Made by a program: the position numbers and the translations under genes. Below are positions 18,699 to 44,311 of a stretch of 45,646 nt of DNA, piece after piece. The DNA comes from a virus: positions 1-45,646 of the IMG/VR virus record IMGVR_UViG_3300029750_000003; one strand, 5' to 3'. Below the pieces are notes generated by a model, which saw only the letters and a list, made by a program, of their open reading frames with translations, was not told where the DNA came from and did no database searches. Within the stretch, counting starts at the first letter, position 1. Each line of letters opens with the position of its first letter.

Positions 18699-19933
18699 GC
18701 AGTTACCCCCATTCTTCTGAATACACGCTCAAGTGCATACCTTGTAGCGTCAATAAGGTGGTTATTCTCGTCAGGATACCCGCTGATGATCTCCCCATCC
18801 TTATTTCGCTCATACTCATAATTCACAAACTCGCTATAAGCGTTTGGAGTCCTTCTGCGGTCAATGACAATCTTCCGCTTCTGGAGCCACTTCATACCAT
18901 ACTCCACGCTTCCAGGCCCCTTAATTGCCTCTTTGGCCGGAAGGCCCATCGCCCGATAGTCTGCTGATGATTTAGGCTCTGCGCTGTCACAGGTAATGTA
19001 AGCATCCTTGTATCCTTTGGAAAGAATCAACTTTGCGCTCGCCTCGTTGGTCAGCTTATTTTGGTATATCTCGTCCATTAGGTATATTGTCTCCCTGGCT
19101 CGGTCATAGTGGAGGCGGATAAAGGCAAATGGATCAGGGAACCAGCCCCAGTCCACACCTTGATAGATACGGTCAAAGGAAGCGAACTCTTCGTCCGTGA
19201 TTCCCCTCAACTCCAGATTCTCAAATACGTTGCCGCCGGTGCCGACCGCTTCGCCCAAGTATTCATGGCGGTATGCCCGCTCATCCGTGGATTTCAGATG
19301 TTCGGCCTCTGCCAGAAACTGCGCCCCAAGCCATTCAGGCGGGGCCTCCAAGTATGTGCTCTTATGGCACAGCCTGTCCGCTCTTTCTTCCAAGCTGTCT
19401 TTGTTGGCCCAGTTGTCCCGGCTGATGGGTGGATTGTAGCTCTCAAAGTTCCAGAACTTCGACCCGCCGCGCATGGTAGATTGTAAAATGGTTCTAATCT
19501 CCGCCCGACCGGAAAACTGATCTTTTTCTTCAAAGTGTGTTACAGCGATATATCCGAACGGAACCTTGATGGACTTTATTTTCATGGGGTCATCAGCGCC
19601 CCGGAACATGATTTTCTGCCCAGTCGGCTTATAAATCAGCTCCATAGGCTGAACCTTAGCGTCCCAGTATGCCGCCATACCCAATTCTCCGATTGCCCAT
19701 AGATATTGTGCATATACGCTGTCCCGGATGGTGTTCGCCACTTTGCGAAGTACCAAGGCGTGGGTGTTTGAATTGGTCAGCAAGATAAGCGGCACCAGCA
19801 GGGAGACGCAGGAAGATTTAAGCGAGCCTCGGCCACCAGACAAATCATAGTGTGTGTGTCCGTGTTGGAATACGTCACGAGCCAGTAGGTGGAATGCAGG
19901 TCCAAGGACGGACGATAAACGAATCTCAGACAT
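18695..19933 (-). CDS. terL: Terminase large subunit (PBSX/Terminase_3-like, headful type)
   Basis: 412 aa. N-terminal Walker-A-like GGRGSLKS. Position after terS. Confidence 0.9.
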   Translation of the reverse strand: MSEIRLSSVLGPAFHLLARDVFQHGHTHYDLSGGRGSLKSSCVSLLVPLILLTNSNTHALVLRKVANTIRDSVYAQYLWAIGELGMAAYWDAKVQPMELIYKPTGQKIMFRGADDPMKIKSIKVPFGYIAVTHFEEKDQFSGRAEIRTILQSTMRGGSKFWNFESYNPPISRDNWANKDSLEERADRLCHKSTYLEAPPEWLGAQFLAEAEHLKSTDERAYRHEYLGEAVGTGGNVFENLELRGITDEEFASFDRIYQGVDWGWFPDPFAFIRLHYDRARETIYLMDEIYQNKLTNEASAKLILSKGYKDAYITCDSAEPKSSADYRAMGLPAKEAIKGPGSVEYGMKWLQKRKIVIDRRRTPNAYSEFVNYEYERNKDGEIISGYPDENNHLIDATRYALERVFRRMGVTA

Positions 19934-20306
19934 CTATGACCACCTTAACCTCCGTATCTCCATCGCCGTTCGCCTTTCCATCGAACGCTCCCACATGCTT
20001 TCCCAGTAATTCAAGCGCTTTTATCTTGCTGGAATACTTCAGATCGCTGTCATTCGCATCCGAGGCCGGTTTATCTGTGATTTCCTTCAGCTTGGCAAGC
20101 ACATAGTCCTGTGTAATCTCTGTCCGTTCACTTCTGGCTCTCTTTGCTTCCTGAATTGCGGAAGAAACGTTATTTTTCGTAATTAGCTGCCGCCCAATTT
20201 CAGGGTTTTTATACCCTGCCCGAAGAGCAGCCTGTGCGGCATTCAAATCCACAAGGTACTCCTGCACAAATCTTTCCTGCTTTGGCGTTAATGCCACACT
20301 CACCAC
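19926..20306 (-). CDS. terS: Terminase small subunit
   Basis: 126 aa. LTPKQERFVQEYLVDLNAAQAALRAGY is the signature N-terminus of Terminase_2-type small subunits. GTG start. Confidence 0.85.
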   Translation of the reverse strand: MVSVALTPKQERFVQEYLVDLNAAQAALRAGYKNPEIGRQLITKNNVSSAIQEAKRARSERTEITQDYVLAKLKEITDKPASDANDSDLKYSSKIKALELLGKHVGAFDGKANGDGDTEVKVVIDV

Positions 20307-20360
20307 CTCTCGCCTAAGTAGAGTCTACAAATGCCCCCCACCGCCACCGATAGAGCGCGC

Positions 20361-20490
20361 CCTCTCTCTTTCTTTTCGGGGGAGATTAAGGGGGGATTAT
20401 AGGGGGGTAAGAGATAGGGGGATCGGGGGGAAGGGAGAGGGGGGATAAAGGGGGCCATCAAGAGGGGGACCTTTTCTTTCTCTCTCCCTT
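20361..20490. repeat. Purine block with nine G5-G6 runs, flanked by an exact 17-nt pyrimidine mirror repeat
   Basis: G runs at ~20378, 20390, 20402, 20417, 20425, 20439, 20450 and 20464, plus GGG at 20433. cctctctctttcttttc (20361-20377) is the exact mirror of cttttctttctctctcc (20471-20487). Confidence 0.85.
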
Positions 20491-20500
20491 GCTTTCGTTT

Positions 20501-20538
20501 TGCTTTTGAAATGCTTTTAAATGCTTTTAAATGCTTTT
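20501..20538. repeat. Phased 10-11-bp repeats of tgctttt (four copies)
   Basis: tgcttttgaa atgcttttaa atgcttttaa atgctttt, giving helically phased T-tracts. Confidence 0.85.
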
Positions 20539-20658
20539 CGCCGCCTACTGTCGAGCACTGGCTCGGATCCGGCCAGCCGTCACAGCCTGTTAAGCGATAC
20601 ACCCGTGTGGGTTGATAGCCTCCCCCGTCTCCTGCAACTGCGGGGCGGCAAATATTTT

Positions 20659-20710
20659 ACGCTAATATTAGCATTTTCATGTTGACAATACGCTAATATT
20701 AGCGTATAAT
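20659..20710 (+). promoter_or_regulatory. Consensus sigma-A-type promoter with two palindromic operators
   Basis: TTGACA (20682-20687), a 17-nt spacer, then TATAAT (20705-20710). The perfect 16-bp palindrome ACGCTAATATTAGCGT (20690-20705) fills the spacer. A second copy, ACGCTAATATTAGC (20659-20672), is centred 31 bp upstream. Confidence 0.8.
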
Positions 20711-20750
20711 AGAATCATCAAGAGGGGGACAGCCCCAGGAGGTAACTAAC

Positions 20751-21098
20751 ATGAAAAAGTACAATCTCTCTGAAATCATGAAAGCCGCTTGGAACCTGCG
20801 CAAGATGTCCCTCAAGTGGGTCACCTCTCTCAGCTTCGGTGAGTGCCTGCGCCGCGCCTGGAAGGCCGCGAAGGACGCCGCCCGTGTGTTCTCCGGCCTC
20901 GTGTGCAATGTCCAGGTCGGCGGAACCCTGGCGCACCCCGTCCTGGTGGATATCGACATGGACGCCCTGACCGTCACTGGCAATACCTACCCCGTGCGTA
21001 GCATGATGCGCGAGTTCGGTCTGGTTTGGGATCGTGACAACAAGGCTTGGACTGGCAGCCGCGAAACTCTCAATCCCATCTGCGTCAAGTACGCTTAA
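20751..21098 (+). CDS. Hypothetical protein (115 aa), first gene of the plus-strand cassette
   Basis: ATG 8 nt after AGGAGGT. Helical N-terminus (NLSEIMKAAWNLRK...FGECLRRAWKAAK). C-terminal GNTYPVRSMMREFGLVWDRDNKAW motif. Confidence 0.75.
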   Translation: MKKYNLSEIMKAAWNLRKMSLKWVTSLSFGECLRRAWKAAKDAARVFSGLVCNVQVGGTLAHPVLVDIDMDALTVTGNTYPVRSMMREFGLVWDRDNKAWTGSRETLNPICVKYA

Positions 21099-21121
21099 TT
21101 ACGATTGGTAAGGAGACAACT

Positions 21122-21574
21122 ATGGAAAAGTATTACATCATTGCAGACTTAAAGCGTAACCCAGCCGCCGGGGAGGATGTTCCCCCCGTCCCTGGTGCCC
21201 AGGTATATGAGGGGAGAATGAAAGCCATCATCGAGGCTGAGAACTGGGAAACAGCCATGAAGCAAGGCCAGGAGCTGATCATGGGCTGCCTGAAAAAGCA
21301 CATCGTCCCGTACCAGTGGGTCTGGATGCCCGTCAAGGACGCCGAGAAGATGGGGGACACCGCCATATATGAGAGGTACCCCACCGCAACCAGGCTGACC
21401 TATGAGCGAGTCAAAGCCGGTCTGACGCAGAAGCAGTTGGCCGAGCGCTCTGGTGTCAATATCCGTCAAATCCAGCGTGTCGAGCTTGGAGAGTCCGAGG
21501 CCGGAAACCTCACCGCCAAGAATCTGCTAGCAATCGCTGACGCGCTTGGCGTGGAGTTGAGGAGACTTCTCTGA
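21122..21574 (+). CDS. XRE-family HTH protein with ~85-aa N-terminal domain of unknown function
   Basis: ATG after AAGGAG. C-terminal LTQKQLAERSGVNIRQIQRVELGESEAGNLTAKNLLAIADALGV is a classic XRE helix-turn-helix. Confidence 0.8.
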   Translation: MEKYYIIADLKRNPAAGEDVPPVPGAQVYEGRMKAIIEAENWETAMKQGQELIMGCLKKHIVPYQWVWMPVKDAEKMGDTAIYERYPTATRLTYERVKAGLTQKQLAERSGVNIRQIQRVELGESEAGNLTAKNLLAIADALGVELRRLL

Positions 21575-21984
21575 TGGCTGTTGTTGTAAAGCCCCGTACC
21601 TGCCGCCAGTGCGGCGCTGTCTTTGATGGCGGCCCCCGCGCATGGTATTGCCCGGCCTGCCGCCTGGTGCGGAGTAGAGAAGCAGACGCGAGGCGGAGAA
21701 AAAAGGGGCGAAAGGCTGACCGCCCTCTCGGTAGTATCGATAAATGCACCGTCTGCGGGAAAGAGTATGTGGTAAACTCTGGCCGGCAAAAGTATTGTCC
21801 CGACTGCGCCTATGAGGCCGTCCGCAAGGTGGATCGTCCAGCCTCACGGGCTTGGAACCAGGCCAACAAGGAAACTTACTATCCAGCCAGGAATGAAAAG
21901 CGCCGAAAAGAACGCGCGGAGAATCCAGAGCTGGTTCGGGCAAAAGAACGAGCTGCCTATGCCAAACGAAAATCTAAAACATAA
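21574..21984 (+). CDS. Basic protein with two zinc-ribbon motifs
   Basis: CRQC..17..CPAC and CTVC..14..CPDC. Lys/Arg-rich C-terminus. ATGA overlap with the preceding gene. Confidence 0.7.
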   Translation: MAVVVKPRTCRQCGAVFDGGPRAWYCPACRLVRSREADARRRKKGRKADRPLGSIDKCTVCGKEYVVNSGRQKYCPDCAYEAVRKVDRPASRAWNQANKETYYPARNEKRRKERAENPELVRAKERAAYAKRKSKT

Positions 21985-21992
21985 CCATCCTT

Positions 21993-22020
21993 CCGCCCCT
22001 TCGGGGGCGGCTTTATTTTT
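21993..22020 (+). terminator. Rho-independent terminator of the plus-strand cassette
   Basis: CCGCCCC-ttcg-GGGGCGG followed by CTTTATTTTT. Confidence 0.85.
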
Positions 22021-22342
22021 GAGCGGGTGAGGATTTGCACCTCACATGAGTGGATTGCTGTCTAACGCCCGTCGCGCATTACTGCGGCCTGCAAACCCGA
22101 GGGACGATACCCATACCGCGAGCAGGATAATAGGTGCCACTCTACCCGTCACCATAGCGTCTACCTTATTCCGCCACCGCTCAATGTTTTCAGACCGACC
22201 AACATCTTTTCACCAGCCACCGCCAGCCCTTCACCCTGAATGGGGTGGTTTTCAGCCGTGCGGCATATTGCACACAGAGGGGGTGGCGGCAGATGCACCG
22301 ACGCCACCCCATCCGTGTGAAGGAGGAAGGGGAATGAAAGAG

Positions 22343-22380
22343 AATGGGAGCGCAGGGGCACACGCTCCCACACTCCCATT
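22343..22380. terminator. GC hairpin, probably a bidirectional terminator closing the early operon
   Basis: GGGAGCG (22346-22352) pairs with CGCTCCC (22363-22369). An alternative outer pairing is AATGGGAG/CTCCCATT. T-rich sequence follows on both strands. Confidence 0.55.
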
Positions 22381-22457
22381 TTCGCATAGTTATTGTTTTG
22401 TGCTCACTACATGTTGTAAAAACAGAATATTTTTAACAATATAATGAAAGGTTAGCC

Positions 22458-22655
22458 TTAATCAAAATACCCCAAGCTCACATTGTAATATTTTGCAATT
22501 ATCAAAAGATTTGATATCGTTGGCTCATGCTCTCCCCTCTCGTATCCTCTCAACGTATTGGGCCCCAACCCCATCAACTGCGACACAATATCAACCCTTT
22601 TCCCGGGCTCCTTTTCTTCCCTTAACTTTATCAATTTCTCCGGGAACTTGTTCAA
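22458..22655 (-). CDS. Small XRE-family HTH protein (65 aa), last gene of the early operon
   Basis: ORF track. HTH-like VDIVSQLMGLGPNTLRGYERGEHEPTISNLLIIAKYYNVSLGY. AT-richer than the upstream genes. Confidence 0.7.
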   Translation of the reverse strand: MNKFPEKLIKLREEKEPGKRVDIVSQLMGLGPNTLRGYERGEHEPTISNLLIIAKYYNVSLGYFD

Positions 22656-34450: not shown

Positions 34451-34479
34451 ATAATATATCAACCAAGTTTAAATGTCAA
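34451..34479 (-). promoter_or_regulatory. Early (lytic) promoter of the genetic switch
   Basis: Minus strand: TTGACA (34479..34474), a 17-nt spacer containing AACTTGGTTGA, then TATTAT (34456..34451). Confidence 0.75.
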
Positions 34480-34567: not shown

Positions 34568-34939
34568 GTGAAAACCATAGCTGAGCGAATTATGGAAGTG
34601 GTTGAAGAAAAGGGCGGAAACAAAAGTGATTTTGCCCGTAAAATTAACGTTACTCCAGCATACATTTCCAAATTAGGAAAAGATCCAAACTGCATTCCTA
34701 GCGATCGCACCATTGCCGACATCTGCCGTGAATTTAACATCTCCGAGCTCTGGCTGCGTACCGGAGAAGGAGAGCCCCATATCCAGAGGGACGAGGACGA
34801 GGAGTTCCTCGAAGTCACGGAGCAGATCCACATGTCTGATGATGATCTGATTAAGCGGATTATTAAGGCATATTGGTTTATGGAGGACGACGAAAAAGCC
34901 GCCATCAGAAAACTGATAGACGGCTTTACAAAAAAATAA
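34568..34939 (+). CDS. CI-like repressor (XRE HTH, no S24 peptidase domain)
   Basis: GTG 7 nt after AGGAGGT. KSDFARKINVTPAYISKLGK HTH. Divergent from the early operon. 123 aa. Confidence 0.75.
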   Translation: MKTIAERIMEVVEEKGGNKSDFARKINVTPAYISKLGKDPNCIPSDRTIADICREFNISELWLRTGEGEPHIQRDEDEEFLEVTEQIHMSDDDLIKRIIKAYWFMEDDEKAAIRKLIDGFTKK

Positions 34940-36254: not shown

Positions 36255-37286
36255 ATGAGAAGAGCGAATGGAACTGGAAGTATTGTAAATCTTGGGCCAA
36301 ACCGCAGAAACCGATACGCCGTCAGGGTGTCGTATTTGGAGCGGCCCGGACTGTGGAAGCAAAAGTATCTATCCTACCACAGAACTGCCAAAGAAGCACA
36401 GGAGGCCCTTGACAAATATTTGGCATCTAATATCCCGGCAAAGTCACTCGCCGTTACCTGGGGAGACGTATACAATCAGTGGTCTGCCAAAAAGTATGCA
36501 AAGGCAGGAACTGCCTCTATCGCCAGCTATAAGGCTTCTTGGGCGCGCCTCTGTGTGCTAGAAAAAAAGGATATGTGCAAGGTTACGATTGACGACCTAC
36601 AATCTATTATTGACCAAGACGAGGCAAACGGATTATCGAAATCTAGTATTAGCAATGACAAAATGCTTATGAAAGCACTTTTTAAGCACGCAACAGAGCG
36701 CGATATCGTGTATAAAGACTATTCCGCTTTTGTGGAACTTCCAGGAGTTGAAGCAAAGCACGAAAAGGGTGCTTTTGATGATATCACAATGCGTAAATTG
36801 GAGAACCTGGCGTCCTCTGGATTCCCTTGGGCTGATACCGTACTAATGCTATGTTATACTGGATTCCGGGTGTCCGAGTTTTTGGGGCTTACCAGATTCT
36901 CGTATCATTCGGAGGCGAATTATTTGCAAGGAGGTCTAAAAACCCAGGCCGGGAAAAATCGCATTGTCCCGGTGCATCCTAAAATCATGCCATATCTGAC
37001 CAAGTGGCTGTCCAGGGGCGGTAAAACTATTATCTGTGATGATGACGGGAATGCAATCCCCGCATACAAATACCGCCCGCTATTCTCTAAAGTTATGGAA
37101 GAATTAGGACTTCCTTCCGCAACCCCTCATTGGTGCAGACATACCGCCGCGTCTCGGATGAGGATGGCCGGGGTGGACGAAGTCGCTATAAAGCGTATCT
37201 TAGGGCATTCCGATGGAGATGTTACCGAGCACTATACGCACGTAGATGTTTCGTTTTTGGCTAAAGAGATCCAGAAGGTTTCCTAA
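36255..37286 (+). CDS. int: Tyrosine integrase
   Basis: 343 aa. Catalytic-type motifs GFRVSE (Arg), HWCRHTAAS (H-x-x-R) and LGHSDGDVTEHYTH (His..Tyr). Confidence 0.9.
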   Translation: MRRANGTGSIVNLGPNRRNRYAVRVSYLERPGLWKQKYLSYHRTAKEAQEALDKYLASNIPAKSLAVTWGDVYNQWSAKKYAKAGTASIASYKASWARLCVLEKKDMCKVTIDDLQSIIDQDEANGLSKSSISNDKMLMKALFKHATERDIVYKDYSAFVELPGVEAKHEKGAFDDITMRKLENLASSGFPWADTVLMLCYTGFRVSEFLGLTRFSYHSEANYLQGGLKTQAGKNRIVPVHPKIMPYLTKWLSRGGKTIICDDDGNAIPAYKYRPLFSKVMEELGLPSATPHWCRHTAASRMRMAGVDEVAIKRILGHSDGDVTEHYTHVDVSFLAKEIQKVS

Positions 37287-37583: not shown

Positions 37584-38393
37584 TTAGCCCCTCACGATGT
37601 ACTCGTAGTAGCGGGCCAGTTTGTCCTCTGGTGCGTCCTTATCACACAGGAACGATTTTGCCATGTCGGCGTAAAAATCAATCTTATCGCCAACACCGTG
37701 TTTCTTGGCTACCTTAACGTAGTCACTATAGACCATGTTGAGGGCCGCCCAAAACTGGACAGGGTCGCACTCAATCCCACGCTGGGCCATGACCTGCTTT
37801 GCCTGCTCCAGCGTCCAGTGAGCGCCACGGGTGCCGTCTTCGTTATCCATATGCTTAGACCATTCATCGGCCATCTCCTTCGTGAAAGGGATATAGCCGG
37901 AAGCAGCCCCATAACCTGTCATGCGTTCTCCACCTTTTCTGTACGCCATCTCGTCCATGCGGTAGTCATGGTCAAACTCTCTCGGAGTTCTCATTTCTCC
38001 TTCTCCAGAGATAGCGAATCCGATTTTGTTCATTGGCCGATTCATCTCCCGTCGCTCTGTGTATGCGCTCCCATCCTCCCGATAGACCGGTGGGACGTAG
38101 GGGTAGCCGTAGTGAGACTGAGGGCCGTACATCCGGTCATCCCAGTAGCGGTTCTCTACCCACATGCCGCCATCGTTGCGTGGGGCAAAGCGTCCATCAG
38201 AGTAACGACGATAGCCCCGATCCTCCGGCTCCATCATCTCAGAGCGCGGTGCATAACGGCCATTGTCGTAATGCTCCCGGCCATGGCGGTCACGAAACTT
38301 ATCATCGACATCGTAGTTGTCGTAGCTCCGTCCGTCGTTGTAGCGACGATTGTTGCCACTGGACATGAGCATCATCCGAGTAGATCGTTTCAT
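37584..38393 (-). CDS. Hypothetical protein: Arg/Asp/Tyr/Asn-rich low-complexity N-half plus a globular C-terminal domain
   Basis: 269 aa. Repeats DNGRYAPRSEMM and SDGRFAPRNDGGM. C-terminus FTKEMADEWSKHMDNEDGTRGAHWTLEQAKQVM... Confidence 0.7.
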   Translation of the reverse strand: MKRSTRMMLMSSGNNRRYNDGRSYDNYDVDDKFRDRHGREHYDNGRYAPRSEMMEPEDRGYRRYSDGRFAPRNDGGMWVENRYWDDRMYGPQSHYGYPYVPPVYREDGSAYTERREMNRPMNKIGFAISGEGEMRTPREFDHDYRMDEMAYRKGGERMTGYGAASGYIPFTKEMADEWSKHMDNEDGTRGAHWTLEQAKQVMAQRGIECDPVQFWAALNMVYSDYVKVAKKHGVGDKIDFYADMAKSFLCDKDAPEDKLARYYEYIVRG

Positions 38394-38405
38394 TTTGACC
38401 CCTCC

Positions 38406-38801
38406 TTACGCCGTAGGGGCGGGTGCAGCACCGCCGTCAATACTGGCAAGATTGTTGCTGGGAGAGCAGCAGGGCTGCCCCAGCATGCGGAACGAGCCGC
38501 CGGTGGGGGTAGTCACCACACAGACGGAGTATCGGGTGCGAGTACGGATGCCGCAGGCAGTCACCTGCGCGCAGTTACGCTTGGTAAGGGGATATAGCTC
38601 TGTCCCCGTACCAATAGTAATGTACACAGGTGCATTGATGGTAGTTGTGGCCGGGATGGACTGGGCTACCACAATACAATACTTCCCGCCGTTGTTGTAG
38701 GCACCGGCAGGCAGATTGATTTCAAGGTTGCCGCCGGTAAAGGTGACCGCCTGGCTTAGCACCAGGTTGTCGCACAGGCGGCAAACAGGCTTACAAGACA
38801 T
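38406..38801 (-). CDS. Hypothetical Cys-containing beta-rich protein (131 aa)
   Basis: ATG 5 nt after GGAGGT. MSCKPVCRLCDNLVLSQAVTFTGGNLEINLPAGAYNNGGKYCIVVAQ... Confidence 0.7.
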   Translation of the reverse strand: MSCKPVCRLCDNLVLSQAVTFTGGNLEINLPAGAYNNGGKYCIVVAQSIPATTTINAPVYITIGTGTELYPLTKRNCAQVTACGIRTRTRYSVCVVTTPTGGSFRMLGQPCCSPSNNLASIDGGAAPAPTA

Positions 38802-38899
38802 AAAATACCTCCAAGAATCAGGGGCGGCAGACATTTAGCCCGCCGCCCCGAAATAGTCACGGCAGAGCCGGAAATTTAAAGTGGTCGATTTCGACCAGT

Positions 38900-39661
38900 T
38901 TAGCAGCCACAGCCGCAGCCGCTGCTGTAGGTCCCGCAATAGGGATAGGGGGCGGGCACTTGGTAAGCGGGTACGGGCATGGGGTTGATGCGCCGAATCA
39001 GCTCAGAGGTCTGAGCGTCAGACATGGCAGCAAGATAAGAGTTCTGTGCGGTCTGGCTGGCCTGGAACTTCAACGCCTGATTCTCAGACTGGAGGGAGGC
39101 GATCTTATCCTGAGTCAAGAAATTCAGGATTTCACGAGTACCAGCGTTCTGGCTGTCAATGATATCTCGTGTGCTATTCTGGATGGTATTCTGGATGGCG
39201 CAGGTGTTGGTCGCCATGTTGTAGTTCACGCCGTCGATAGCGCGCTGGGTCTGGCAGCAGCAGTCCTGTGCCTGAGCGGCCATGTTGCACATCTGAGACT
39301 GGACGCCGTTGAAGCCCTGGAGAAGTGCCACATTGGTGTTGTTGAAGCCGCTGGTGATGCTGTTATTCAGCGCATAGGTGCTGTCACAGATGCCCTGCTG
39401 GATAGCAGAGATGCCGCGCTCAACGCCATTGAACGCAATGGCCTCGTTCACATCGGCACGGGTGGCTAGGCCCTCGAGGCCGGGATCGGTGCTGGCACCG
39501 CCACCGCCGAAACCACCGAAGCCGCCGCGGCCCCAGCCAAAAATCATGGCGAAGATGATGATAGCCCACCAGCCATCGCCACCCCAAAAGCCGCCATTGT
39601 TACAGTTGCCGCCGTTGGAGTCGGAGCCAAGAGCATAGCCAGTCGCAAAATCGTTATCCAT
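38900..39661 (-). CDS. Hypothetical membrane protein: Gly/Trp-rich N-terminus, Asn/Gln-rich Cys-containing core, CGCGC tail
   Basis: 253 aa. GGFWGGDGWWAIIIFAMIFGWGRGGFGGFGGGG. Ends YCGTYSSGCGCGC. Confidence 0.7.
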   Translation of the reverse strand: MDNDFATGYALGSDSNGGNCNNGGFWGGDGWWAIIIFAMIFGWGRGGFGGFGGGGASTDPGLEGLATRADVNEAIAFNGVERGISAIQQGICDSTYALNNSITSGFNNTNVALLQGFNGVQSQMCNMAAQAQDCCCQTQRAIDGVNYNMATNTCAIQNTIQNSTRDIIDSQNAGTREILNFLTQDKIASLQSENQALKFQASQTAQNSYLAAMSDAQTSELIRRINPMPVPAYQVPAPYPYCGTYSSGCGCGC

Positions 39662-39767
39662 TGTATATACTCCTTTGTCAGTTATTACATCGGGGCCGTA
39701 CGCTCCCCGGATGTTTCCAAAGAGCGGTTTTTATCAAGACCCGAAAACTGATAAAGAGTGCTCTATT

Positions 39768-40004
39768 TTATTTCATGGGTATACCTAGTTGTCGTGCAAT
39801 TTCCTCAACGGAGGTTCCCCTCTGTTTCGCCATGTTTTCTGCTGTTTGGCGAAGCTGCTGCGGGTTTTTCCCCTGAATGAGCCGCATAGCTTGGGCAGCC
39901 TGTGGATTCTGGCCAGCCATCTGTTGGAGCATTTGCATGGGATTCCCGCCGTTCCGCGCCATCTGGAGCATGGCCATCATGGGATTATTCATCGGAGGCA
40001 TCAT
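39768..40004 (-). CDS. Hypothetical Met/Gln/Pro-rich small protein (78 aa)
   Basis: MMPPMNNPMMAMLQMARNGGNPMQMLQQMAGQNPQAAQAM... Confidence 0.6.
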   Translation of the reverse strand: MMPPMNNPMMAMLQMARNGGNPMQMLQQMAGQNPQAAQAMRLIQGKNPQQLRQTAENMAKQRGTSVEEIARQLGIPMK

Positions 40005-40470
40005 TCTTTTTCCCTGCCTTTCCGCCGGACGTGGGCTTTTTCAGCCGTTCTATTTCGTCCTTCAGATTGTTGATGGTGTCCTTCATGTCCATAAATTCAT
40101 CCAGCGGTGCAAAAGCGGGGGCCGGGTTCTCTGCCTGCTGTTCTTTTGCCTGCTGTTGGCCGTGGAACTCAAACACATCAGCAGCTCCGGTATTGGTATT
40201 GAATCGTTTCATATAGACCACATTATGAGCGAGGTCGGGGAAAAACATGGGAGCACCCATGAAGTCAACCGGAACACCCAGCGCTTCTTCCCTGGAGGCC
40301 ACAGGACGGCAGAAAAAAGCGGGCTGTGTGTTTACATTACTCTGTGGCTGAATGGTCTGTGAGGGTTGCTGAGTAGGTTGCTGGGGCTGATATACTTGTG
40401 GAGCCGGAGCAAACGGGGTAACAGGATTGTAGGCCCCATAAGCCGGGTATGTGTAATTAGGAAACGCCAT
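39985..40470 (-). CDS. Hypothetical protein: Pro/Gln/Tyr-rich N-terminus, conserved core, C-terminal coiled coil
   Basis: ATG after GGGGAGGGAGG. The core FFCRPVASREEALGVPVDFMGAPMFFPDLAHNVVYMKRF resembles a family I recall as widespread in Clostridia with unknown function. Confidence 0.7.
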   Translation of the reverse strand: MAFPNYTYPAYGAYNPVTPFAPAPQVYQPQQPTQQPSQTIQPQSNVNTQPAFFCRPVASREEALGVPVDFMGAPMFFPDLAHNVVYMKRFNTNTGAADVFEFHGQQQAKEQQAENPAPAFAPLDEFMDMKDTINNLKDEIERLKKPTSGGKAGKKNDASDE

Positions 40471-40636
40471 ACTGACGCGCCTCCCTCCCCGCCTCCAATG
40501 CGGTTACGTAATCCTCTAGGCCCTCGTCATCTCCCTGTGCCATGTACCACATCGCTGTTTCGGTGGCACAATCGCGGGACATGCCAGCGGCTACCATCCT
40601 CTCAATCAAAGTCATCTCAAACACGTCCTTGTCCAT
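40457..40636 (-). CDS. Small acidic helical protein (59 aa; below the track cutoff), first ORF of the operon
   Basis: My translation: MDKDVFEMTLIERMVAAGMSRDCATETAMWYMAQGDDEGLEDYVTALEAGREARQYGVS. Overlaps the next start. No clear RBS. Confidence 0.4.
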   Translation of the reverse strand: MDKDVFEMTLIERMVAAGMSRDCATETAMWYMAQGDDEGLEDYVTALEAGREARQYGVS

Positions 40637-40838
40637 AAAAATAAGGAGTCCGTGAGGAGGGCGGCGACGTGTACCAACCCTGTATCCTCACGTCCTCCAT
40701 GTCTATATTGTCGCATAAAAATACCCCGCATGGGCGGCACACATGTGGGGGTTGTGTGGAAGTTATGGGGGATTCGCGTAATTTTTTGTATTTACTTTTT
40801 GAGATGTTACTTTATAATAGAAAGGGAGCGTGAAAAAT

Positions 40839-41117
40839 ATGATTATATATCGGCCCCATAGAGGCGGACTGAAAGAGGCTATGTCAGAAGCAAAAGAATT
40901 TAATAATGTAGAGGATATGAAAGAGTATATAGTCAAGCAGCATACTGACGATGTTATGGGAGAGGCATTTTCCAAAAATGATATTGTATTGGAAGAAGAT
41001 GGGATAGAGGATAAAAGAACTGGGTGGAAAGACACAAGACATATTTGTGTGAAACGATATTACAACGAAAATTTTCCAATCCCTCAGTGTATCGGATGGT
41101 TTGCAACAAAATATTAA
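40839..41117 (+). CDS. AT-rich orphan gene (92 aa), plus strand
   Basis: ATG 10 nt after GGGAG. Conspicuously AT-rich. Possible -10 TATAAT at 40813-40818. Ends at the shared terminator. Confidence 0.6.
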   Translation: MIIYRPHRGGLKEAMSEAKEFNNVEDMKEYIVKQHTDDVMGEAFSKNDIVLEEDGIEDKRTGWKDTRHICVKRYYNENFPIPQCIGWFATKY

Positions 41118-41151
41118 AAAAGGAGCCGGGTTAATCCCCGGCTCCCTTTTT
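41116..41151. terminator. Bidirectional terminator
   Basis: AAAAAA, then GGAGCCGGG-ttaatc-CCCGGCTCC, then CTTTTT. Serves both convergent genes. Confidence 0.8.
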
Positions 41152-41391
41152 CGTATAGAGTTGTTTTGCTACAGCCTCAACCCTCTGGAATATGTATTTC
41201 TCGTGGTCGCTAACTGTGCTTCGATCCCAGCCCAGCTCCGCCGCAACATCAATCTGTCCCCACTTATCAATGATGCGCCGCTTGGCGATCAATTCATCGT
41301 CGCGGTGTAGGGCAGCCTCGTGGATGGCGTTCTCCAACTGAGAGCGCAAGAGTTTATCCAATGGTTCCGGTAACTTCGCTCTTGCGCTCAT
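41131..41391 (-). CDS. Small sigma-70 region-4-like / HTH protein (86 aa)
   Basis: ELIAKRRIIDKWGQIDVAAELGWDRSTVSDHEKYIFQRV resembles a region-4 HTH. Confidence 0.5.
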   Translation of the reverse strand: MSARAKLPEPLDKLLRSQLENAIHEAALHRDDELIAKRRIIDKWGQIDVAAELGWDRSTVSDHEKYIFQRVEAVAKQLYTKKGAGD

Positions 41392-41395
41392 TCAG

Positions 41396-41725
41396 TCACG
41401 TCCCTTCCGGCGGCTCCGTGGGCAGTTGTTTCAGGGCCTCCACCAGTTTTGCCGCCATTCCGTTCCCGCCTAACGCCTTGTAGGCGTTGTACATGTCCAG
41501 CACGTTTTCCATGCCGTAGATCGGGATATAACGTTGTTCGGAGTAGTGGTTGTACTCGGCAATGATTTCGCGCCTGAGGAGGGCCTGCACGCCCTGCATG
41601 AGCGCGTCGCTCTTTTGGTTATCTGCCTTGACACGTTTCCGTTCCCGCGCGGCGACCGCCTCAATGATTGCCACCAGGACGACCGCCGCGCCGGAAATCA
41701 GTGGGCCTACCCACTCCATGGGCAT
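41396..41725 (-). CDS. N-terminally membrane-anchored protein after the holin (lysis accessory?)
   Basis: 109 aa. TM helix GPLISGAAVVLVAIIEAV. ATGA-type overlap with the holin stop. Confidence 0.6.
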   Translation of the reverse strand: MPMEWVGPLISGAAVVLVAIIEAVAARERKRVKADNQKSDALMQGVQALLRREIIAEYNHYSEQRYIPIYGMENVLDMYNAYKALGGNGMAAKLVEALKQLPTEPPEGT

Positions 41726-41997
41726 CAGCCCTCCTTAGTCAACTGCTTATAAACCTGATTGATACCAGTGGCCGCAAGTCCGCTCACAATGCCTACGGCG
41801 GCGGCTGTTAGGTAATCACTGGCCGGGAACTCAGGCATGATGAACATGCCGAGGATGCCAAGCACCGCGCCAAACGCACCGCAAATGATGGGAATCCACT
41901 TATTGTCCAGTCCGGTAGCTTTGACCACCTGCCCGACGAGGAAGCAGATCACAGTGATGACTGCTACTCCGGTAATACCCAAAGAAGAAATGTCCAT
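41725..41997 (-). CDS. Holin
   Basis: ATG 7 nt after GGAGGT. 90 aa with hydrophobic helices (GVAVITVICFLVGQVV, WIPIICGAFGAVLGILGMFI, AAAVGIVSGLAATGI). Immediately downstream of the endolysin. Confidence 0.7.
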   Translation of the reverse strand: MDISSLGITGVAVITVICFLVGQVVKATGLDNKWIPIICGAFGAVLGILGMFIMPEFPASDYLTAAAVGIVSGLAATGINQVYKQLTKEG

Positions 41998-42011
41998 GAT
42001 ATGTACCTCCA

Positions 42012-43361
42012 TCAAATCAGATTCAGCCGATCCAACACGACGGCCAGCTCCTGCCGGGTCATATTGTCGCGGGGCCGGGTGCCGTCCAGTACGCCCTTGT
42101 CCTTGGCCTTCTGCCACGCCTCAGCGGCCCAAACGTCCGGGGTATCCTCCGCGCTGTCCGCTCCCGTTTCGCCCTGCCAGGCCACGCCCAGCCAGTCACA
42201 GATTCCCTTTGCGGTGGCCTCGGCCAGTTTGTCCCGGTACTTGCTATCCTTGAGATACTCCGTGTCCATCTTGTTGGTATGGAAGCCGTACTCAATGAGC
42301 GCGGCGGGGGCGTCCGTCTTGGCGAGCACGGTATACATCTCGTGCTTGATCGGTTCGCTCCGCAGGGCCACCCCGGCAACATGGAAGGCGTTGACCAGTT
42401 TGGAGGCCAGCACATTGCGCTGCGCCGTCATAGGCCCTGCGCTGGTGTAGATCTCCAGACCGGACGCGCTCGACCATCCGCCCTCACCGGCCGCGTTGGT
42501 GTGGATGCTCACAAAGCAGTCCGGCTGCGCCTGATTGCTGGTCTCGGCTCGCTCCGTCAGGCTGGGGTAATTGTCCGCGGTCTTGGTGAGCACCACGCCC
42601 ACCCCCTGGACCTCCAGCAGCGCCTTGACGCGCTGGGCCATATCCCAGGTAAACTCCCACTCCTTGTATGTACCGTCCGGGGATCCGTTGACGTTGCCCG
42701 GCCCGTGTCCGGGGTCGAGGCATACAGTATGCTTGCTCATAGGCTTGTCCTCCTCTTCCGGCGGCGTCTCAGCGCCGTCCTGCTTGAGATATACACAAAT
42801 CCAGTTGTGCACCTTGCGGCTGGCGGTGATGCGCTCCCCGCCGAAATCGCACTGGCTGGAGCCGCCCCCGTCCAGCATAACGGCAGAGGCCCAGCCCAGC
42901 CCGGCCAACTCGTCCCGCAGAGTTTCCGGCGTGGCTGCGTCTCCGGTCCCATCGCCAGAGCAGTAGAGGGCCAGACTGCCACCACGCAGGCCGATAGCAC
43001 TGCGCCCCCGCTTGCCTCCCTGGGCCGAGCCATAGGAGGGCTTATCCACCGGCTTGCCGGAGGCAATTAGGGCGGTCACCGCGATAAAGTTATCCGCTCC
43101 CTCGTGCTCGGAGGTCATGCGGATGTCAGGCCCCTTGTCCCAGGCGTAGCCCATCGGCCGCCAGGGCGTGCCGGAGAGCATCGCCCCGCCCACCTTAAGC
43201 AGCGGGCAGGGGGTGCCGTCTAGGTTCCACATGCCGCCATTGAGCACGTAATGAGCCTTTGTTTCAGCCTTGACCTGAGAGAGCGTCTTGCGGCAGTTGG
43301 TGACTCTCAGCTCAATCCGCTCCACGGACGAGAGCGGGACATATGTAATGAGCTTACTCAT
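42012..43361 (-). CDS. Endolysin: phosphodiester-glycosidase (NAGPA)-like N-domain, Amidase_3 domain and a C-terminal wall-binding-like motif
   Basis: LNGGMW...SAIGLRGG...MLDGGGSSQ, then VCLDPGHGPG...FVSIHTNAAG...GLEIYTS, then a C-terminal AAEAWQKAKDKGVLDG...TRQELAVVLDRL. Confidence 0.85.
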   Translation of the reverse strand: MSKLITYVPLSSVERIELRVTNCRKTLSQVKAETKAHYVLNGGMWNLDGTPCPLLKVGGAMLSGTPWRPMGYAWDKGPDIRMTSEHEGADNFIAVTALIASGKPVDKPSYGSAQGGKRGRSAIGLRGGSLALYCSGDGTGDAATPETLRDELAGLGWASAVMLDGGGSSQCDFGGERITASRKVHNWICVYLKQDGAETPPEEEDKPMSKHTVCLDPGHGPGNVNGSPDGTYKEWEFTWDMAQRVKALLEVQGVGVVLTKTADNYPSLTERAETSNQAQPDCFVSIHTNAAGEGGWSSASGLEIYTSAGPMTAQRNVLASKLVNAFHVAGVALRSEPIKHEMYTVLAKTDAPAALIEYGFHTNKMDTEYLKDSKYRDKLAEATAKGICDWLGVAWQGETGADSAEDTPDVWAAEAWQKAKDKGVLDGTRPRDNMTRQELAVVLDRLNLI

Positions 43362-43367
43362 GGTCGC

Positions 43368-44308: not shown

Positions 44309-44311
44309 GTG

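What the first reader, a model, noticed from the sequence alone, without database searches (positions are those of the whole stretch)
20659..22020. Autonomous plus-strand three-gene cassette under a consensus promoter with palindromic operators
A three-gene operon points the opposite way between the early and late minus-strand operons. It encodes a 115-aa protein, an XRE HTH protein with an unknown N-domain, and a basic double zinc-ribbon protein. It is driven by a perfect TTGACA-17-TATAAT promoter. The spacer is a perfect 16-bp palindrome (ACGCTAATATTAGCGT), and a second copy lies 31 bp upstream, about three helical turns away. It ends in a strong terminator. The layout resembles a tightly autorepressed accessory module, such as a secondary immunity or antirepressor region like P22 immI, or a prophage-expressed defence or addiction module. 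The main repressor (34568..34939) lacks an S24 autocleavage domain, so induction through an antirepressor is plausible.
Basis: partly seen in the sequence, partly recalled or inferred. Interest (0 to 1): 0.75.

Follow-up and report, generated by a model that had tools for sequence, protein, structure and literature searches.

The report
Self-repressed anti-defence-like prophage gene cassette
This is a small, horizontally mobile prophage operon built like an anti-CRISPR locus: a very strong promoter probably shut off by the operon's own repressor, a swappable slot for small inhibitor-like genes, and a conserved zinc-ribbon partner protein. The same design recurs widely in gut Firmicutes phages.

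Summary
The only perfect TTGACA-17-TATAAT promoter in the window (20682-20710) has a palindrome filling its spacer, with a 15/16 copy 31 bp upstream. It drives three plus-strand genes and ends in a strong terminator, between terS and the end of the early operon.

Comparison with about 135 related loci shows a modular, mobile cassette:
- A conserved 5' module (operators, promoter, 5'UTR).
- A variable cargo slot, here g1 plus the N-domain of g2.
- A conserved 3' module (XRE HTH domain of g2, zinc-ribbon g3, terminator).

The palindrome sequence co-varies with the HTH family, so g2 is very probably the autorepressor. g3-family proteins are repeatedly fused to HTH domains elsewhere, so g2 and g3 probably act as one regulator.

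In sister cassettes the cargo is mostly small acidic proteins and includes clear homologues of the validated anti-CRISPR AcrIC5. The g1 N-domain is homologous to the N-domain of AcrIIA3.

Best reading: an acr-aca-like anti-defence operon with a new HTH plus zinc-ribbon regulator pair. The P22 immI/antirepressor reading is not supported. The toxin-antitoxin and late-regulator readings are less likely. The function is inferred, not shown.

The parts
20617..20655 (+). Left edge of the conserved 5' module, with a G+C hairpin (CCCCG...CGGGG) followed by AAATATTTT. It may insulate the cassette from upstream transcription. It is shared with some relatives (L012, L013, L015) but not with Cormatin.
   Evidence: blastn breakpoints at window 20618/20622 in L013/L012 and 20649/20650 in L017/L001. 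The fold gives -14.5 kcal/mol with z -1.5, which is not significant.
20659..20674 (.). Distal operator O2, ACGCTAATATTAGCAT. It matches the palindrome at 15/16 and its centre lies 31 bp (about three helical turns) upstream of O1.
   Evidence: It is conserved in Cormatin and in cassettes with other cargo.
20682..20710 (+). Consensus sigma-70-type promoter TTGACA-17-TATAAT. The inferred transcription start is near 20717.
   Evidence: 12/12 match and the only perfect one in the window. The same 11-12/12 design heads related cassettes in many taxa.
20688..20707 (.). Proximal operator O1, a perfect 20-bp palindrome ATACGCTAAT|ATTAGCGTAT. It fills the -35/-10 spacer and overlaps the first bases of the -10 hexamer.
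   Evidence: Its sequence co-varies with the HTH family across cassettes.
20717..20750 (+). 5'UTR with a small GGGG/CCCC hairpin (20724-20736) directly before the Shine-Dalgarno AGGAGG. It contains the 15-mer CATCAAGAGGGGGAC. It is conserved upstream of different cargo genes.
   Evidence: (fold z -1.6, not significant).
20751..21098 (+). g1, 115 aa, basic. This is the cargo gene. Its N-terminal helical hairpin (aa 4-43) is homologous to the N-domain of anti-CRISPR AcrIIA3. Its C-terminal beta-rich domain has no known relative.
   Evidence: NCBIfam NF033948: E 4e-5, 23.6 bits, below the 70-bit cut-off. hhalign vs AcrIIA3: 97.3%, E 1.8e-11. AcrIIA3 scores 37.7 bits on the g1 N-domain HMM. AF2 pLDDT 88.8. 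No PDB fold match. C-domains swap behind the shared N-domain.
21122..21427 (+). N-terminal domain of g2 (aa 1 to about 102). It has no detectable relatives and lies inside the variable cargo slot, so it is a cargo domain fused to the regulator.
   Evidence: The mosaic breakpoint is at window 21428. No Pfam or PDB sequence hits. Only about 60 full-length homologues exist, while the HTH part has hundreds.
21428..21574 (+). XRE/Cro-C1-type HTH domain of g2. It is the inferred autorepressor that binds O1 and O2.
   Evidence: Pfam HTH_3 E 8e-11. Closest solved relatives are HipB, the C.AhdI/C.BclI controller proteins and 434 Cro. Operator and HTH family co-vary.
21574..21984 (+). g3, 136 aa, very basic. 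It consists of two units, each a zinc ribbon followed by a long helix. It is the universal, defining gene of the cassette family and is translationally coupled to g2. It is inferred to be a partner of the HTH regulator.
   Evidence: Family size is 1393/680/253 cluster-50 representatives at E 1e-3/1e-10/1e-30. Family members are fused to HTH_3, HTH_17 and HTH_59 above Pfam cut-offs, and HTH genes lie on either side of it. No PDB fold match.
21993..22019 (+). Intrinsic terminator that closes the cassette. It is convergent with the early-operon terminator at 22371-22344 on the minus strand.

Best explanation
The region is a self-contained, horizontally mobile accessory operon (a moron) of a Flavonifractor/Oscillospiraceae prophage. 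It is built like an anti-CRISPR (acr-aca) locus.

Proposed mechanism:
1. Host RNA polymerase fires the consensus promoter with no phage factor needed. This would happen as soon as the DNA enters a cell, and at a low level in the lysogen.
2. The transcript encodes g1 (a cargo protein with an AcrIIA3-like N-domain), g2 (a cargo-like N-domain fused to an XRE HTH) and g3 (a basic double zinc-ribbon protein).
3. g2 dimers bind the 20-bp palindrome that fills the -35/-10 spacer (O1) and the near-copy three helical turns upstream (O2). They occlude RNA polymerase and clamp expression to a low autoregulated level.
4. g3 is made in step with g2 through the overlapping stop and start codons. It acts with g2 as part of the regulator.
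5. The terminator insulates the convergent early operon.

What is shown: the anatomy, the mobility, the modular cargo slot, the co-variation of operator with HTH family, the HTH/zinc-ribbon gene fusions, and the presence of Acr homologues in the cargo slot of sister cassettes.

What is inferred: that g2 binds O1 and O2, that g3 is a co-regulator, and that g1 and the g2 N-domain inhibit a host defence. The target of any such inhibition is unknown.
For: (1) Discrete mobile unit. Window 20650-22018 is 94% identical to phage Cormatin, with unrelated flanks. Relatives sit either between terS and the early operon or between lysin/holin and integrase. Both are accessory hot spots.

(2) Modular mosaic. 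The 5' module (20618/20649-20745/20755) is 92-93% identical and the 3' module (21428-22017) is 93-98% identical in L012, L013 and L017. The stretch between them (g1 plus the g2 N-domain) is replaced there by unrelated genes.

(3) Conserved promoter design. TTGACA-16/17-TATAAT with a palindromic spacer heads g3-family operons in IMG/VR contigs and in genomes of Oscillospiraceae, Ruminococcus, Lachnospiraceae, Megasphaera and others. The palindrome differs by HTH family:
- XRE type: ACGCTAATATTAGCGT, TACGCCTATATAGGCGTA, CGCCAATATTGGCG.
- C27 type: ATATCATAtttTATGATAT.
- The 111-aa HTH family: TACCAC-N5-7-GTGGTA.

(4) The operator occurs only at the cassette's own promoter.

(5) HTH and zinc ribbon work together. 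The HTH gene lies upstream or downstream of the zinc-ribbon gene, or the two are fused. P0383 has HTH_3 at 58.5 bits, P0374 has HTH_17 at 63.7 bits and P0455 has HTH_59 at 72 bits.

(6) Nature of the cargo. There are many unrelated families of small, mostly very acidic proteins, with charge -10 to -22.
- Four loci (L073, L089, L090, L108) carry an AcrIC5 homologue directly upstream of the regulator genes. Pfam PF22147 gives a best E of 3.6e-24, and phmmer against PDB 7yhr gives E 5.8e-9 and 1.8e-10.
- AcrIC5 is a validated type I-C anti-CRISPR with Firmicutes orthologues (PMC7913775).

(7) g1 N-domain. It is homologous to the AcrIIA3 N-domain. This head domain recurs as the first gene in independent cassettes, with at least 3 different C-domains.

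(8) Precedent. The layout matches established acr-aca biology: a strong promoter, inverted repeats bound by Aca, and variable acr genes upstream of a conserved regulator (PMC6765145, PMC9410906, PMC13551039). Acr-Aca fusion proteins are also known (PMC9001735, PMC10901769).
Against: - No experiment bears on this cassette.
- g1 is basic, not acidic. It reaches only 23.6 bits on the AcrIIA3 model (cut-off 70) and shares only the N-terminal 40-50 residues. The role of that domain in AcrIIA3 is unknown, and the mechanism of AcrIIA3 is itself uncharacterized (bioRxiv 10.64898/2026.06.01.729453).
- The AcrIC5 evidence comes from distant sister cassettes, whose g3 is about 50-55% identical to the window's. 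It does not come from this window.
- The g2 HTH is generic XRE. It matches no structurally solved Aca and is closest to HipB antitoxins and R-M controller proteins.
- The universal conserved gene, g3, has no assigned biochemical activity and could itself be the payload.
- A few proteins in cargo positions carry antitoxin-like RHH or AbrB motifs (TacA1, CopG, MazE_antitoxin hits).
Confidence: 0.55

Rival explanations
1. Toxin-antitoxin, addiction or abortive-infection module. The very basic zinc-ribbon protein g3 would be a nucleic-acid-binding toxin or effector. An upstream protein would neutralise it, and the XRE HTH would be the autoregulating antitoxin or regulator, like a tripartite or reverse-order MqsRA-like system.
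For: - The g2 HTH is closest to HipB and HigA antitoxins and touches MqsA models.
- A fused zinc-ribbon plus XRE-HTH family member passes the MqsA_antitoxin cut-off, at 31 vs 30 bits.
- Charges are complementary: g3 family about +22, many upstream proteins -10 to -22.
- g2 and g3 are translationally coupled, and the promoter is autorepressed.
- A few proteins in cargo positions have RHH or AbrB antitoxin-like motifs.
Against: - L012 keeps g3 at 99% and the HTH at 82% identity, yet it replaces g1 and the g2 N-domain with an unrelated acidic protein. The window has no acidic partner at all. A cognate neutraliser could not be swapped this freely.
- There are no PADLOC hits for g1 or g3 and no toxin family hit.
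- g3 has no enzymatic motif, and its relatives are fused to DNA-binding domains, which fits a regulator.
- Cargo includes AcrIC5 homologues.
Confidence: 0.17
2. One reading: a secondary immunity or antirepressor region like P22 immI. g1 or g3 would be an antirepressor that inactivates the S24-less main repressor, kept silent by the XRE protein.
For: - The main repressor candidate (34568-34939) has an HTH and no S24 domain.
- The cassette is tightly autorepressed and separate from the immunity region.
- In some relatives a Bro-N/KilAC-type antirepressor-like gene lies next to the cassette (C62 in L013-L016, identified by eye from its sequence).
Against: - None of the three proteins has an Ant, Bro, KilAC, Arc or Mnt-like domain.
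- The cassette is shared at 94% identity with Cormatin, an unrelated phage with different regulatory genes. An antirepressor would have to match its cognate repressor.
- The cargo is swapped among otherwise near-identical cassettes.
- Many relatives sit between lysin and integrase.
Confidence: 0.08
3. A late-gene or packaging regulator. g2/g3 would be a DNA-binding activator transcribed divergently from the terS-terL late operon, in the manner of zinc-finger late activators such as P2 Ogr or P4 Delta.
For: - The cassette promoter is divergent from terS, across a 350-bp region with unusual G-tract repeats.
- Several relatives also abut the packaging genes (L025, L013-L016).
- g3 relatives are fused to HTH or AP2 DNA-binding domains.
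Against: - The operator occurs only at the cassette's own promoter and not near terS.
- Many relatives lie between integrase and lysin, far from any late promoter.
- The cassette moves between phages with unrelated late regions.
- A host-consensus promoter would fire early, not late.
- No sequence or fold match to Ogr/Delta-type proteins was found.
Confidence: 0.08
4. A regulator-only module whose payload is g3 itself. g3 would be a basic DNA-binding protein with some other lysogenic-conversion role, such as silencing host or competitor DNA. The upstream small genes would be unrelated hitch-hikers.
For: - g3 is the only universal gene in the family. It is strongly conserved (GGPRAWYCP, RPLGSxD and DRxxSxxWN motifs) and highly basic.
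- No activity has been assigned to it.
Against: - Its recurrent fusion to sequence-specific HTH domains, its tight pairing with an HTH gene and the operator design fit a regulator better than a bulk DNA binder.
- This reading does not explain the systematic cargo slot between the promoter and the regulator.
Confidence: 0.1

Closest known systems
acr-aca operons. Examples are acrIF1-aca1 of Pseudomonas phage JBD30, acrIF8-aca2 of Pectobacterium phage ZF40 and the Listeria acrIIA1 loci.
   Same: - A strong promoter carries inverted-repeat operators bound by the operon's own HTH repressor.
- Variable small inhibitor genes lie upstream of a conserved regulator.
- The unit moves horizontally between unrelated phages.
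- It sits at accessory hot spots.
- Fusion of an inhibitor-like domain to the HTH has precedents (AcrIIA1, AcrIF24, AcrIIA15).
- Sister cassettes carry AcrIC5 homologues, and g1 shares the AcrIIA3 N-domain.
   Different: - The regulator is a pair: an XRE HTH plus a conserved basic multi-zinc-ribbon protein. No described Aca (Aca1-13 HTH, Aca14 RHH) has such a partner.
- The HTH matches no solved Aca.
- The operator fills the whole -35/-10 spacer of a perfect consensus promoter.
- No anti-CRISPR activity has been shown for any gene of this window.
AcrIIA3 (Listeria/Streptococcus prophage anti-CRISPR; NCBIfam NF033948)
   Same: The N-terminal helical hairpin is shared: NxxEIMKxAWN ... SFxxCL+xAWxxAK (hhalign 97.3%, E 1.8e-11). 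Both are small prophage proteins in a multi-gene accessory operon.
   Different: - Only about 45 residues are shared.
- The score is 23.6 bits against a 70-bit family cut-off.
- The C-terminal domain is unrelated.
- g1 is from Oscillospiraceae, not Bacilli.
MqsA antitoxin / MqsRA
   Same: A zinc-ribbon domain plus an XRE HTH binds a palindrome in its own promoter. The small partner gene lies upstream of the regulator. A fused g3-family protein (P0383) passes the MqsA_antitoxin threshold through its HTH part.
   Different: - Here the zinc ribbons and the HTH are separate proteins.
- The zinc-ribbon part is a distinct, larger, very basic family.
- No MqsR/RelE-like toxin is present.
- The upstream genes are diverse and swappable.
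Restriction-modification controller (C) proteins such as C.AhdI and C.Esp1396I
   Same: The small XRE HTH has detectable sequence similarity. Two palindromic operators at the gene's own promoter give timed, autoregulated expression of downstream genes on entry into a new cell.
   Different: There are no restriction or methylase genes. The operator lies inside the promoter spacer, so repression only is expected.
Morons of lambdoid and other temperate phages
   Same: It is an independent transcription unit with its own promoter and terminator, inserted between phage operons on the opposite strand. It is present or absent among otherwise related phages.
   Different: It has a conserved built-in regulator pair and a defined cargo slot, so it is a platform rather than a single added gene.

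Membership tests
acr-aca operon | The operon contains a gene homologous to an experimentally validated anti-CRISPR. | tested here: inconclusive
   In the window, only the g1 N-domain matches AcrIIA3 (hhalign 97.3%; NCBIfam 23.6 bits, below the 70-bit cut-off). In sister cassettes (L073, L089, L090, L108), full-length AcrIC5 homologues occupy the same slot.
acr-aca operon | A DNA-binding regulator gene (Aca) lies in the same operon, downstream of the variable genes. | tested here: met
   g2 has HTH_3 at E 8e-11. The HTH plus zinc-ribbon 3' module is conserved while the upstream genes vary.
acr-aca operon | Inverted-repeat operator(s) lie within or next to the operon promoter. | tested here: met
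   O1 (20688-20707) lies in the spacer and O2 (20659-20674) lies 31 bp upstream. The design is conserved, and the sequence co-varies with the HTH family.
acr-aca operon | The regulator represses the promoter, and the cargo inhibits CRISPR-Cas. | not testable with these tools
   This needs EMSA, reporter and phage-plating assays.
Known Aca families (Aca1-Aca14) | Sequence membership of the regulator in a described Aca family. | tested here: not met
   No Aca chain appears among PDB sequence matches up to E 5. The best matches are HipB, C.AhdI and 434 Cro. Aca HMMs were not available, so Aca families without a solved structure were not tested.
AcrIIA3 family (NF033948, equivalog) | Full-length match above the curated cut-off of 70 bits. 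| tested here: not met
   23.6 bits, covering profile positions 1-50 of 119 only.
AcrIIA11 family | Profile-level homology of g3 to AcrIIA11. | tested here: not met
   The single-sequence hit (E 0.0025) falls to 17.6% in hhalign. It falls to 0.6% against a 14-member AcrIIA11 family profile. 9utm is absent from the 50 listed Foldseek PDB matches.
P22 immI-type secondary immunity region | An antirepressor (Ant) gene controlled by Arc/Mnt-type repressors. | tested here: not met
   No Ant, Bro, KilAC or RHH domain is found in g1-g3. The regulator is XRE-type.
Type II toxin-antitoxin (HicAB, HigBA, MqsRA, HipBA) | A recognisable toxin partner next to the HTH antitoxin. | tested here: not met
   g1 and g3 have no toxin family hit in Pfam, NCBIfam or PADLOC. 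The g2 N-domain gives no HicB hit. The HTH resemblance is generic.
Known anti-phage defence systems (PADLOC-DB v2) | Any component model matches g1 or g3. | tested here: not met
   g1 and g3 match 0 families. g2 gives only generic HTH hits.
Moron (independent accessory transcription unit in a prophage) | It has its own promoter and terminator, lies between phage operons, and is present or absent among related phages. | tested here: met

The most novel reading that the evidence does not exclude
The XRE HTH and the basic multi-zinc-ribbon protein together form a new, widespread class of anti-CRISPR-associated regulator: a split or fused 'MqsA-like Aca'. It marks a plug-in expression platform for anti-defence genes in phages of gut Clostridia and Negativicutes.

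Under this reading:
- g1 (AcrIIA3-like head with a new C-domain) and the g2 N-domain are new anti-defence proteins.
- The dozens of unrelated small acidic proteins in the cargo slot of the g3 family form a large untapped catalogue of Acr or anti-restriction proteins. The family has about 680 clusters at E 1e-10.
- The zinc-ribbon partner adds a regulatory input not seen in known Aca systems, for example sensing of cargo or host state.
Probability: 0.4. Interest if true: 0.8.

Novelty: new variant of a known kind. Interest (0 to 1): 0.68.

Why it matters
Aca genes are the main guilt-by-association handle for finding anti-CRISPR and other anti-defence proteins. Almost all described Aca families come from Proteobacteria and Bacilli, and all are HTH proteins apart from one RHH family. 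A 2026 survey explicitly asks whether zinc-finger regulators also control acr operons (PMC13551039).

If this reading is right, three things follow.
- The conserved zinc-ribbon gene, together with the recognisable consensus promoter with a palindromic spacer, would be a specific and easily searched anchor for anti-defence loci in gut Oscillospiraceae, Ruminococcaceae, Lachnospiraceae and Negativicutes. Few Acrs are known in these groups.
- It would supply dozens of candidate inhibitors at once, including an AcrIIA3-like family that might help explain the still-unknown AcrIIA3 mechanism.
- The promoter, operator and repressor set is a compact, portable, tightly autoregulated expression unit for hard-to-engineer gut anaerobes.

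Tried and rejected
- **AcrIIA11 lead for g3.** A PDB profile search hit AcrIIA11 at E 0.0025 over 53 residues. I rejected it. hhalign gave 17.6% against the single sequence. It gave 0.6% against a family profile built from 14 homologues taken from the eLife supplement. 9utm was not among the 50 listed Foldseek PDB matches. tblastn found no AcrIIA11 homologue elsewhere in the window.
- **HicB-like fold for the g2 N-domain.** I suspected this from the predicted pattern of secondary-structure elements. There was no support in Pfam or in the PDB profile search.
- **Fold searches.** g1 and g3 against PDB gave nothing below E 0.7. g3 against BFVD returned only uncharacterised homologues from gut phage MAGs with automatic labels.
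- **PADLOC and PHROGs.** PADLOC gave no defence-system match for g1 or g3. PHROGs gave only unknown-function families for g1 and g3.
- **Rfam.** Nothing real was found in 19900-22600. The microRNA 'hits' are the palindromes.
- **5'UTR hairpin and upstream hairpin.** Their folding energies were not significant against shuffles.
- **Expression data.** The OMM12 paper that named Cormatin and Chenonceau contains no RNA-seq.
- **Gene calling on loci.** My first two heuristics (longest ORF, then GC3) mis-called g3. I replaced them with a codon log-odds caller trained on long ORFs.
- **Toxin-antitoxin reading.** I considered it seriously because of the charge complementarity, and down-weighted it because of the cargo swapping.
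Full report

Yes. Reading 20300-22300 and the consensus scan give TTGACA at 20682-20687, a 17-nt spacer and TATAAT at 20705-20710.

- This is the only perfect sigma-70 consensus in the 45.6-kb window. With one mismatch allowed there are 3 sites against 0.14 expected.
- One of the other two sites lies beside the repressor gene, at 34451-34479 on the minus strand.
- The spacer holds ACGCTAATATTAGCGT. This is the core of a perfect 20-bp palindrome, ATACGCTAAT|ATTAGCGTAT, at 20688-20707.
- The upstream copy at 20659-20674 has one mismatch (…AGCAT), so 'second copy' is slightly generous. Its centre lies 31 bp upstream.
- No other site with up to 3 mismatches exists in the window (2 found, 0.09 expected).

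The three genes:

| Gene | Coordinates | Size | Main feature |
|---|---|---|---|
| g1 | 20751-21098 | 115 aa | no whole-protein family match |
| g2 | 21122-21574 | 150 aa | Pfam HTH_3 at aa 95-147, E 8e-11 |
| g3 | 21574-21984 | 136 aa | two CxxC…CxxC units; only sub-threshold zinc-ribbon hits |

g1 and g2 have good Shine-Dalgarno sequences. The g3 ATG overlaps the g2 stop codon (TGATG).

The terminator at 21993-22010 has seven G-C pairs, a TTCG loop and a T-run, with dG -15.8 kcal/mol and z -2.7.

- terS and terL are on the minus strand to the left.
- The tail of the early operon is on the minus strand from 22458 to the right.
- A repressor-like HTH protein without an S24 domain is at 34568-34939.
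- An integrase is at 36255-37286.

**2. It is a discrete mobile unit with a cargo slot.**

Window 20650-22018 is 94% identical to Flavonifractor phage Cormatin. The flanking genes of the two phages are unrelated.

I surveyed g3 homologues in 80 IMG/VR contigs and 55 GTDB genome contigs. Gene maps came from a codon-log-odds caller. The same layout recurs: a short operon, usually opposite in direction to its neighbours. It consists of one to three small variable genes, an HTH gene and a basic multi-zinc-ribbon gene.

The cassette sits in one of two places:
- between the packaging genes and the end of the early operon, as in this window;
- between the lysin/holin genes and the integrase.

Both are classic accessory-gene positions.

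Pairwise blastn locates the recombination joints:
- The 5' module (about 20618/20649 to 20745/20755) covers the operators, the promoter and the 5'UTR up to the first start codon. It is 92-93% identical in L012, L013 and L017.
- The 3' module (21428-22017) covers the HTH domain of g2, g3 and the terminator. It is 93-98% identical in the same loci.
- Everything between the two modules (g1 and the first ~100 residues of g2) is replaced there by unrelated genes.

So the 'unknown N-domain' of the XRE protein belongs to the variable slot. It is fused to the regulator.

**3. Who binds the palindromes?**

The promoter design is conserved far beyond sequence homology. TTGACA-16/17-TATAAT (11-12/12) with a palindrome filling the spacer heads these operons in Oscillospiraceae, Ruminococcus, Lachnospiraceae, Megasphaera and other genomes.

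The palindrome changes with the HTH family encoded downstream:

| HTH family | Palindrome in the promoter spacer |
|---|---|
| XRE, g2-type | ACGCTAATATTAGCGT, TACGCCTATATAGGCGTA, CGCCAATATTGGCG |
| C27-type (159 aa) | ATATCATAtttTATGATAT |
| 111-aa 'FAxRFCIPxRTVExW' family | TACCAC-N5-7-GTGGTA |

A second, weaker copy two to three helical turns upstream also recurs. This co-variation is comparative evidence that the cassette's own HTH protein recognises the palindrome.

A dimer bound between -35 and -10 of a consensus promoter must exclude RNA polymerase. Negative autoregulation is therefore the natural inference, but it has not been shown. The closest solved relatives of the g2 HTH are HipB, the R-M controller proteins C.AhdI and C.BclI, and 434 Cro. 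All of these bind palindromic operators as dimers.

**4. What is g3?**

- AF2 models it confidently (pLDDT 86.6) as two units, each a zinc ribbon followed by a long helix, plus C-terminal helices.
- Foldseek finds nothing significant in the PDB. In BFVD it finds only uncharacterised gut-phage homologues.
- The family is sizeable: 1393, 680 and 253 cluster-50 representatives at E 1e-3, 1e-10 and 1e-30.
- It is strongly conserved in the motifs RxCxxCGxxFxGGPRAWYCPxCR and RPLGSxDxCxxCGxxYxVxSxxQ+YCPxCA…DRxxSxxWN.
- It is very basic, with a median net charge of +22.
- It carries from 2 to about 11 CxxC motifs, that is, a variable number of ribbon units.

Its partnership with an HTH is robust.
- The HTH gene lies directly upstream or directly downstream of it.
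- Longer family members carry HTH domains above Pfam thresholds: P0383 (HTH_3, 58.5 bits), P0374 (HTH_17, 63.7 bits) and P0455 (HTH_59, 72 bits).
- Other members carry an N-terminal excisionase-like HTH or a C-terminal AP2 or GerE-like domain. These were identified at sub-threshold scores or by eye.

By Rosetta-stone logic g3 works with g2 as one regulator. The fused form has the architecture of MqsA, a zinc-binding domain plus an XRE HTH. What the ribbons contribute is unknown. Candidates are DNA or RNA contacts, oligomerisation, or binding of a ligand or protein.

**5. What is the cargo?**

*In the window.*
- g1 is a basic 115-aa protein with a confident AF2 model (pLDDT 88.8) and no PDB fold match.
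- Its N-terminal helical hairpin is homologous to the N-terminus of the Listeria anti-CRISPR AcrIIA3.
  - NCBIfam NF033948 gives E 4e-5, but only 23.6 bits against a 70-bit cut-off.
  - hhalign gives 97.3%, E 1.8e-11 over 49 columns.
  - AcrIIA3 scores 37.7 bits on an HMM of the g1 N-domain.
- The same head domain, joined to at least three different C-terminal domains, is the first gene of independent cassettes.
- The mechanism of AcrIIA3 is still uncharacterised (bioRxiv 10.64898/2026.06.01.729453).

*In sister cassettes.*
- The slot holds dozens of unrelated families of small proteins, most of them strongly acidic, with charge -10 to -22.
- A Pfam scan of 72 cargo representatives returned the anti-CRISPR family AcrIC5 for two of them. 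The best E was 3.6e-24, and the other scored 30.2 bits against a 27-bit cut-off.
- phmmer against the PDB confirms full-length homology to AcrIC5 (7yhr), with E 5.8e-9 and 1.8e-10.
- In L073, L089, L090 and L108 this gene is the one directly upstream of the HTH/zinc-ribbon genes.
- AcrIC5 is a validated, broad-spectrum type I-C inhibitor with orthologues in Firmicutes (PMC7913775).

**6. Most likely mechanism.**

The anatomy matches the acr-aca paradigm (PMC6765145, PMC9410906, PMC13551039):
- a promoter that host polymerase can use at once;
- variable small inhibitor genes;
- a conserved downstream repressor that binds inverted repeats in that promoter, limiting over-expression and read-through;
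- free horizontal exchange.

Fusions of an inhibitor domain to the regulator also have precedents, namely AcrIIA1, AcrIF24 and AcrIIA15 (PMC9001735, PMC10901769).

I therefore propose that g1 and the N-domain of g2 are anti-defence cargo, and that g2(HTH)+g3 is the autoregulator.

One further inference rests on general knowledge of tailed phages. The cassette lies immediately upstream of terS. If packaging starts in the 20306-20650 region and proceeds through the late genes, the cassette would be the last DNA packaged and the first injected. That would suit an immediate-early counter-defence gene. This does not apply to the integrase-adjacent relatives and was not tested.

**7. Rivals.**

- *Toxin-antitoxin.* This reading is suggested by the HipB/HigA/MqsA-like HTH, the charge complementarity and the translational coupling. 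The main objection is that L012 keeps g3 at 99% identity while exchanging the upstream genes, and the window has no acidic partner. In addition, no toxin or defence model matches.
- *immI/antirepressor.* This lacks any Ant, Arc or Mnt-like domain. It is also hard to reconcile with a cassette shared between phages that have different immunity regions.
- *Late activator.* This is contradicted by the integrase-adjacent locations and by the absence of operator copies near terS.
- *g3 as payload.* That g3 is itself the payload cannot be excluded.

**8. Novelty and verdict.**

The locus is a new variant of a known kind. It is an acr-aca-like platform whose conserved module is an HTH plus a multi-zinc-ribbon protein.
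- No described Aca family has such a partner.
- The g2 HTH matches no solved Aca.
- The latest survey lists zinc-finger regulators of acr operons as an open question (PMC13551039).

Nothing here is experimental. The anti-defence function of g1 and the g2 N-domain rests on architecture, on one shared domain and on guilt by association with AcrIC5 in distant sister cassettes.

My confidence is:
- about 0.85 that this is a mobile, self-repressed accessory operon with g2 as the operator-binding protein;
- about 0.55 for the full anti-defence reading.

Noticed in passing
window 20379-20470 and 20505-20538: Two unusual repeats lie in the 350 bp between terS and the cassette. One is an array of G5-6 tracts spaced about 11-12 nt apart (GGGGGAGATTAAGGGGGGATTATAGGGGGG...). 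The other is three tandem AATGCTTTT(A) units with a 10-nt period. Window 20300-20617, which spans both repeats, is 75.6% identical to phage Chenonceau, where the match lies upstream of its terS. This may be a pac/cos site, TerS-binding repeats or the late promoter region.
   Followed up: partly
window 20456-20470 and 20716-20730: The exact 15-mer CATCAAGAGGGGGAC occurs twice: once in the G-tract region and once at the start of the cassette's 5'UTR. The UTR copy is conserved in cassettes with different cargo. It is unexplained. It could be a remnant of an older cassette insertion or a shared RNA or DNA signal.
   Followed up: partly
window 22020-22458: About 440 bp between the cassette terminator and the last early gene have no convincing ORF. 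They contain a minus-strand terminator (22371-22344) and two weak minus-strand promoter-like sites. The stretch checked (up to 22200) is 98% identical in L012. It could hold a small RNA or decayed genes.
   Followed up: no
window 34451-34479 (-) and 34568-34939 (+): A near-consensus promoter (TTGACA-17-TATTAT) faces the early operon, divergent from the 123-aa HTH repressor-like gene. This is the probable immunity switch of the prophage.
   Followed up: partly
window 37584-45579: To the right of the integrase there is a further block of minus-strand genes. It includes a 449-aa protein (42012-43361) that clusters with lysin-like proteins (phosphodiester-glycosidase type, by eye) which flank cassettes in other phages. 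This could be a second prophage or remnant, or the true boundary may lie elsewhere.
   Followed up: no
g1 aa 76-101 (window 20976-21053); L082 cargo protein: The C-terminal motif of g1, GNTYPxRxxxxxxGLxWxxxxKAW, also ends a DnaJ-domain protein that occupies a cargo position in L082 (...GNTYPNREALKAAGLRYSKGKAAWYW...). It appears to be a small portable module of unknown function.
   Followed up: no
L007-L010 (5001-6686): A g1 homologue (73% identical) heads a different four-gene operon directly downstream of an integrase. It is followed by a 79-aa acidic protein, a 232-aa CxCxCG-repeat protein with an AP2 domain, and a 140-aa protein with a C-terminal RHH-like tail. No XRE gene is present.
   Followed up: partly
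L001 (Cormatin) and L003-L006: The Cormatin-like phages that share the cassette also encode ParA-like and ParB_N proteins and replication initiators. This suggests a phage-plasmid lifestyle.
   Followed up: no
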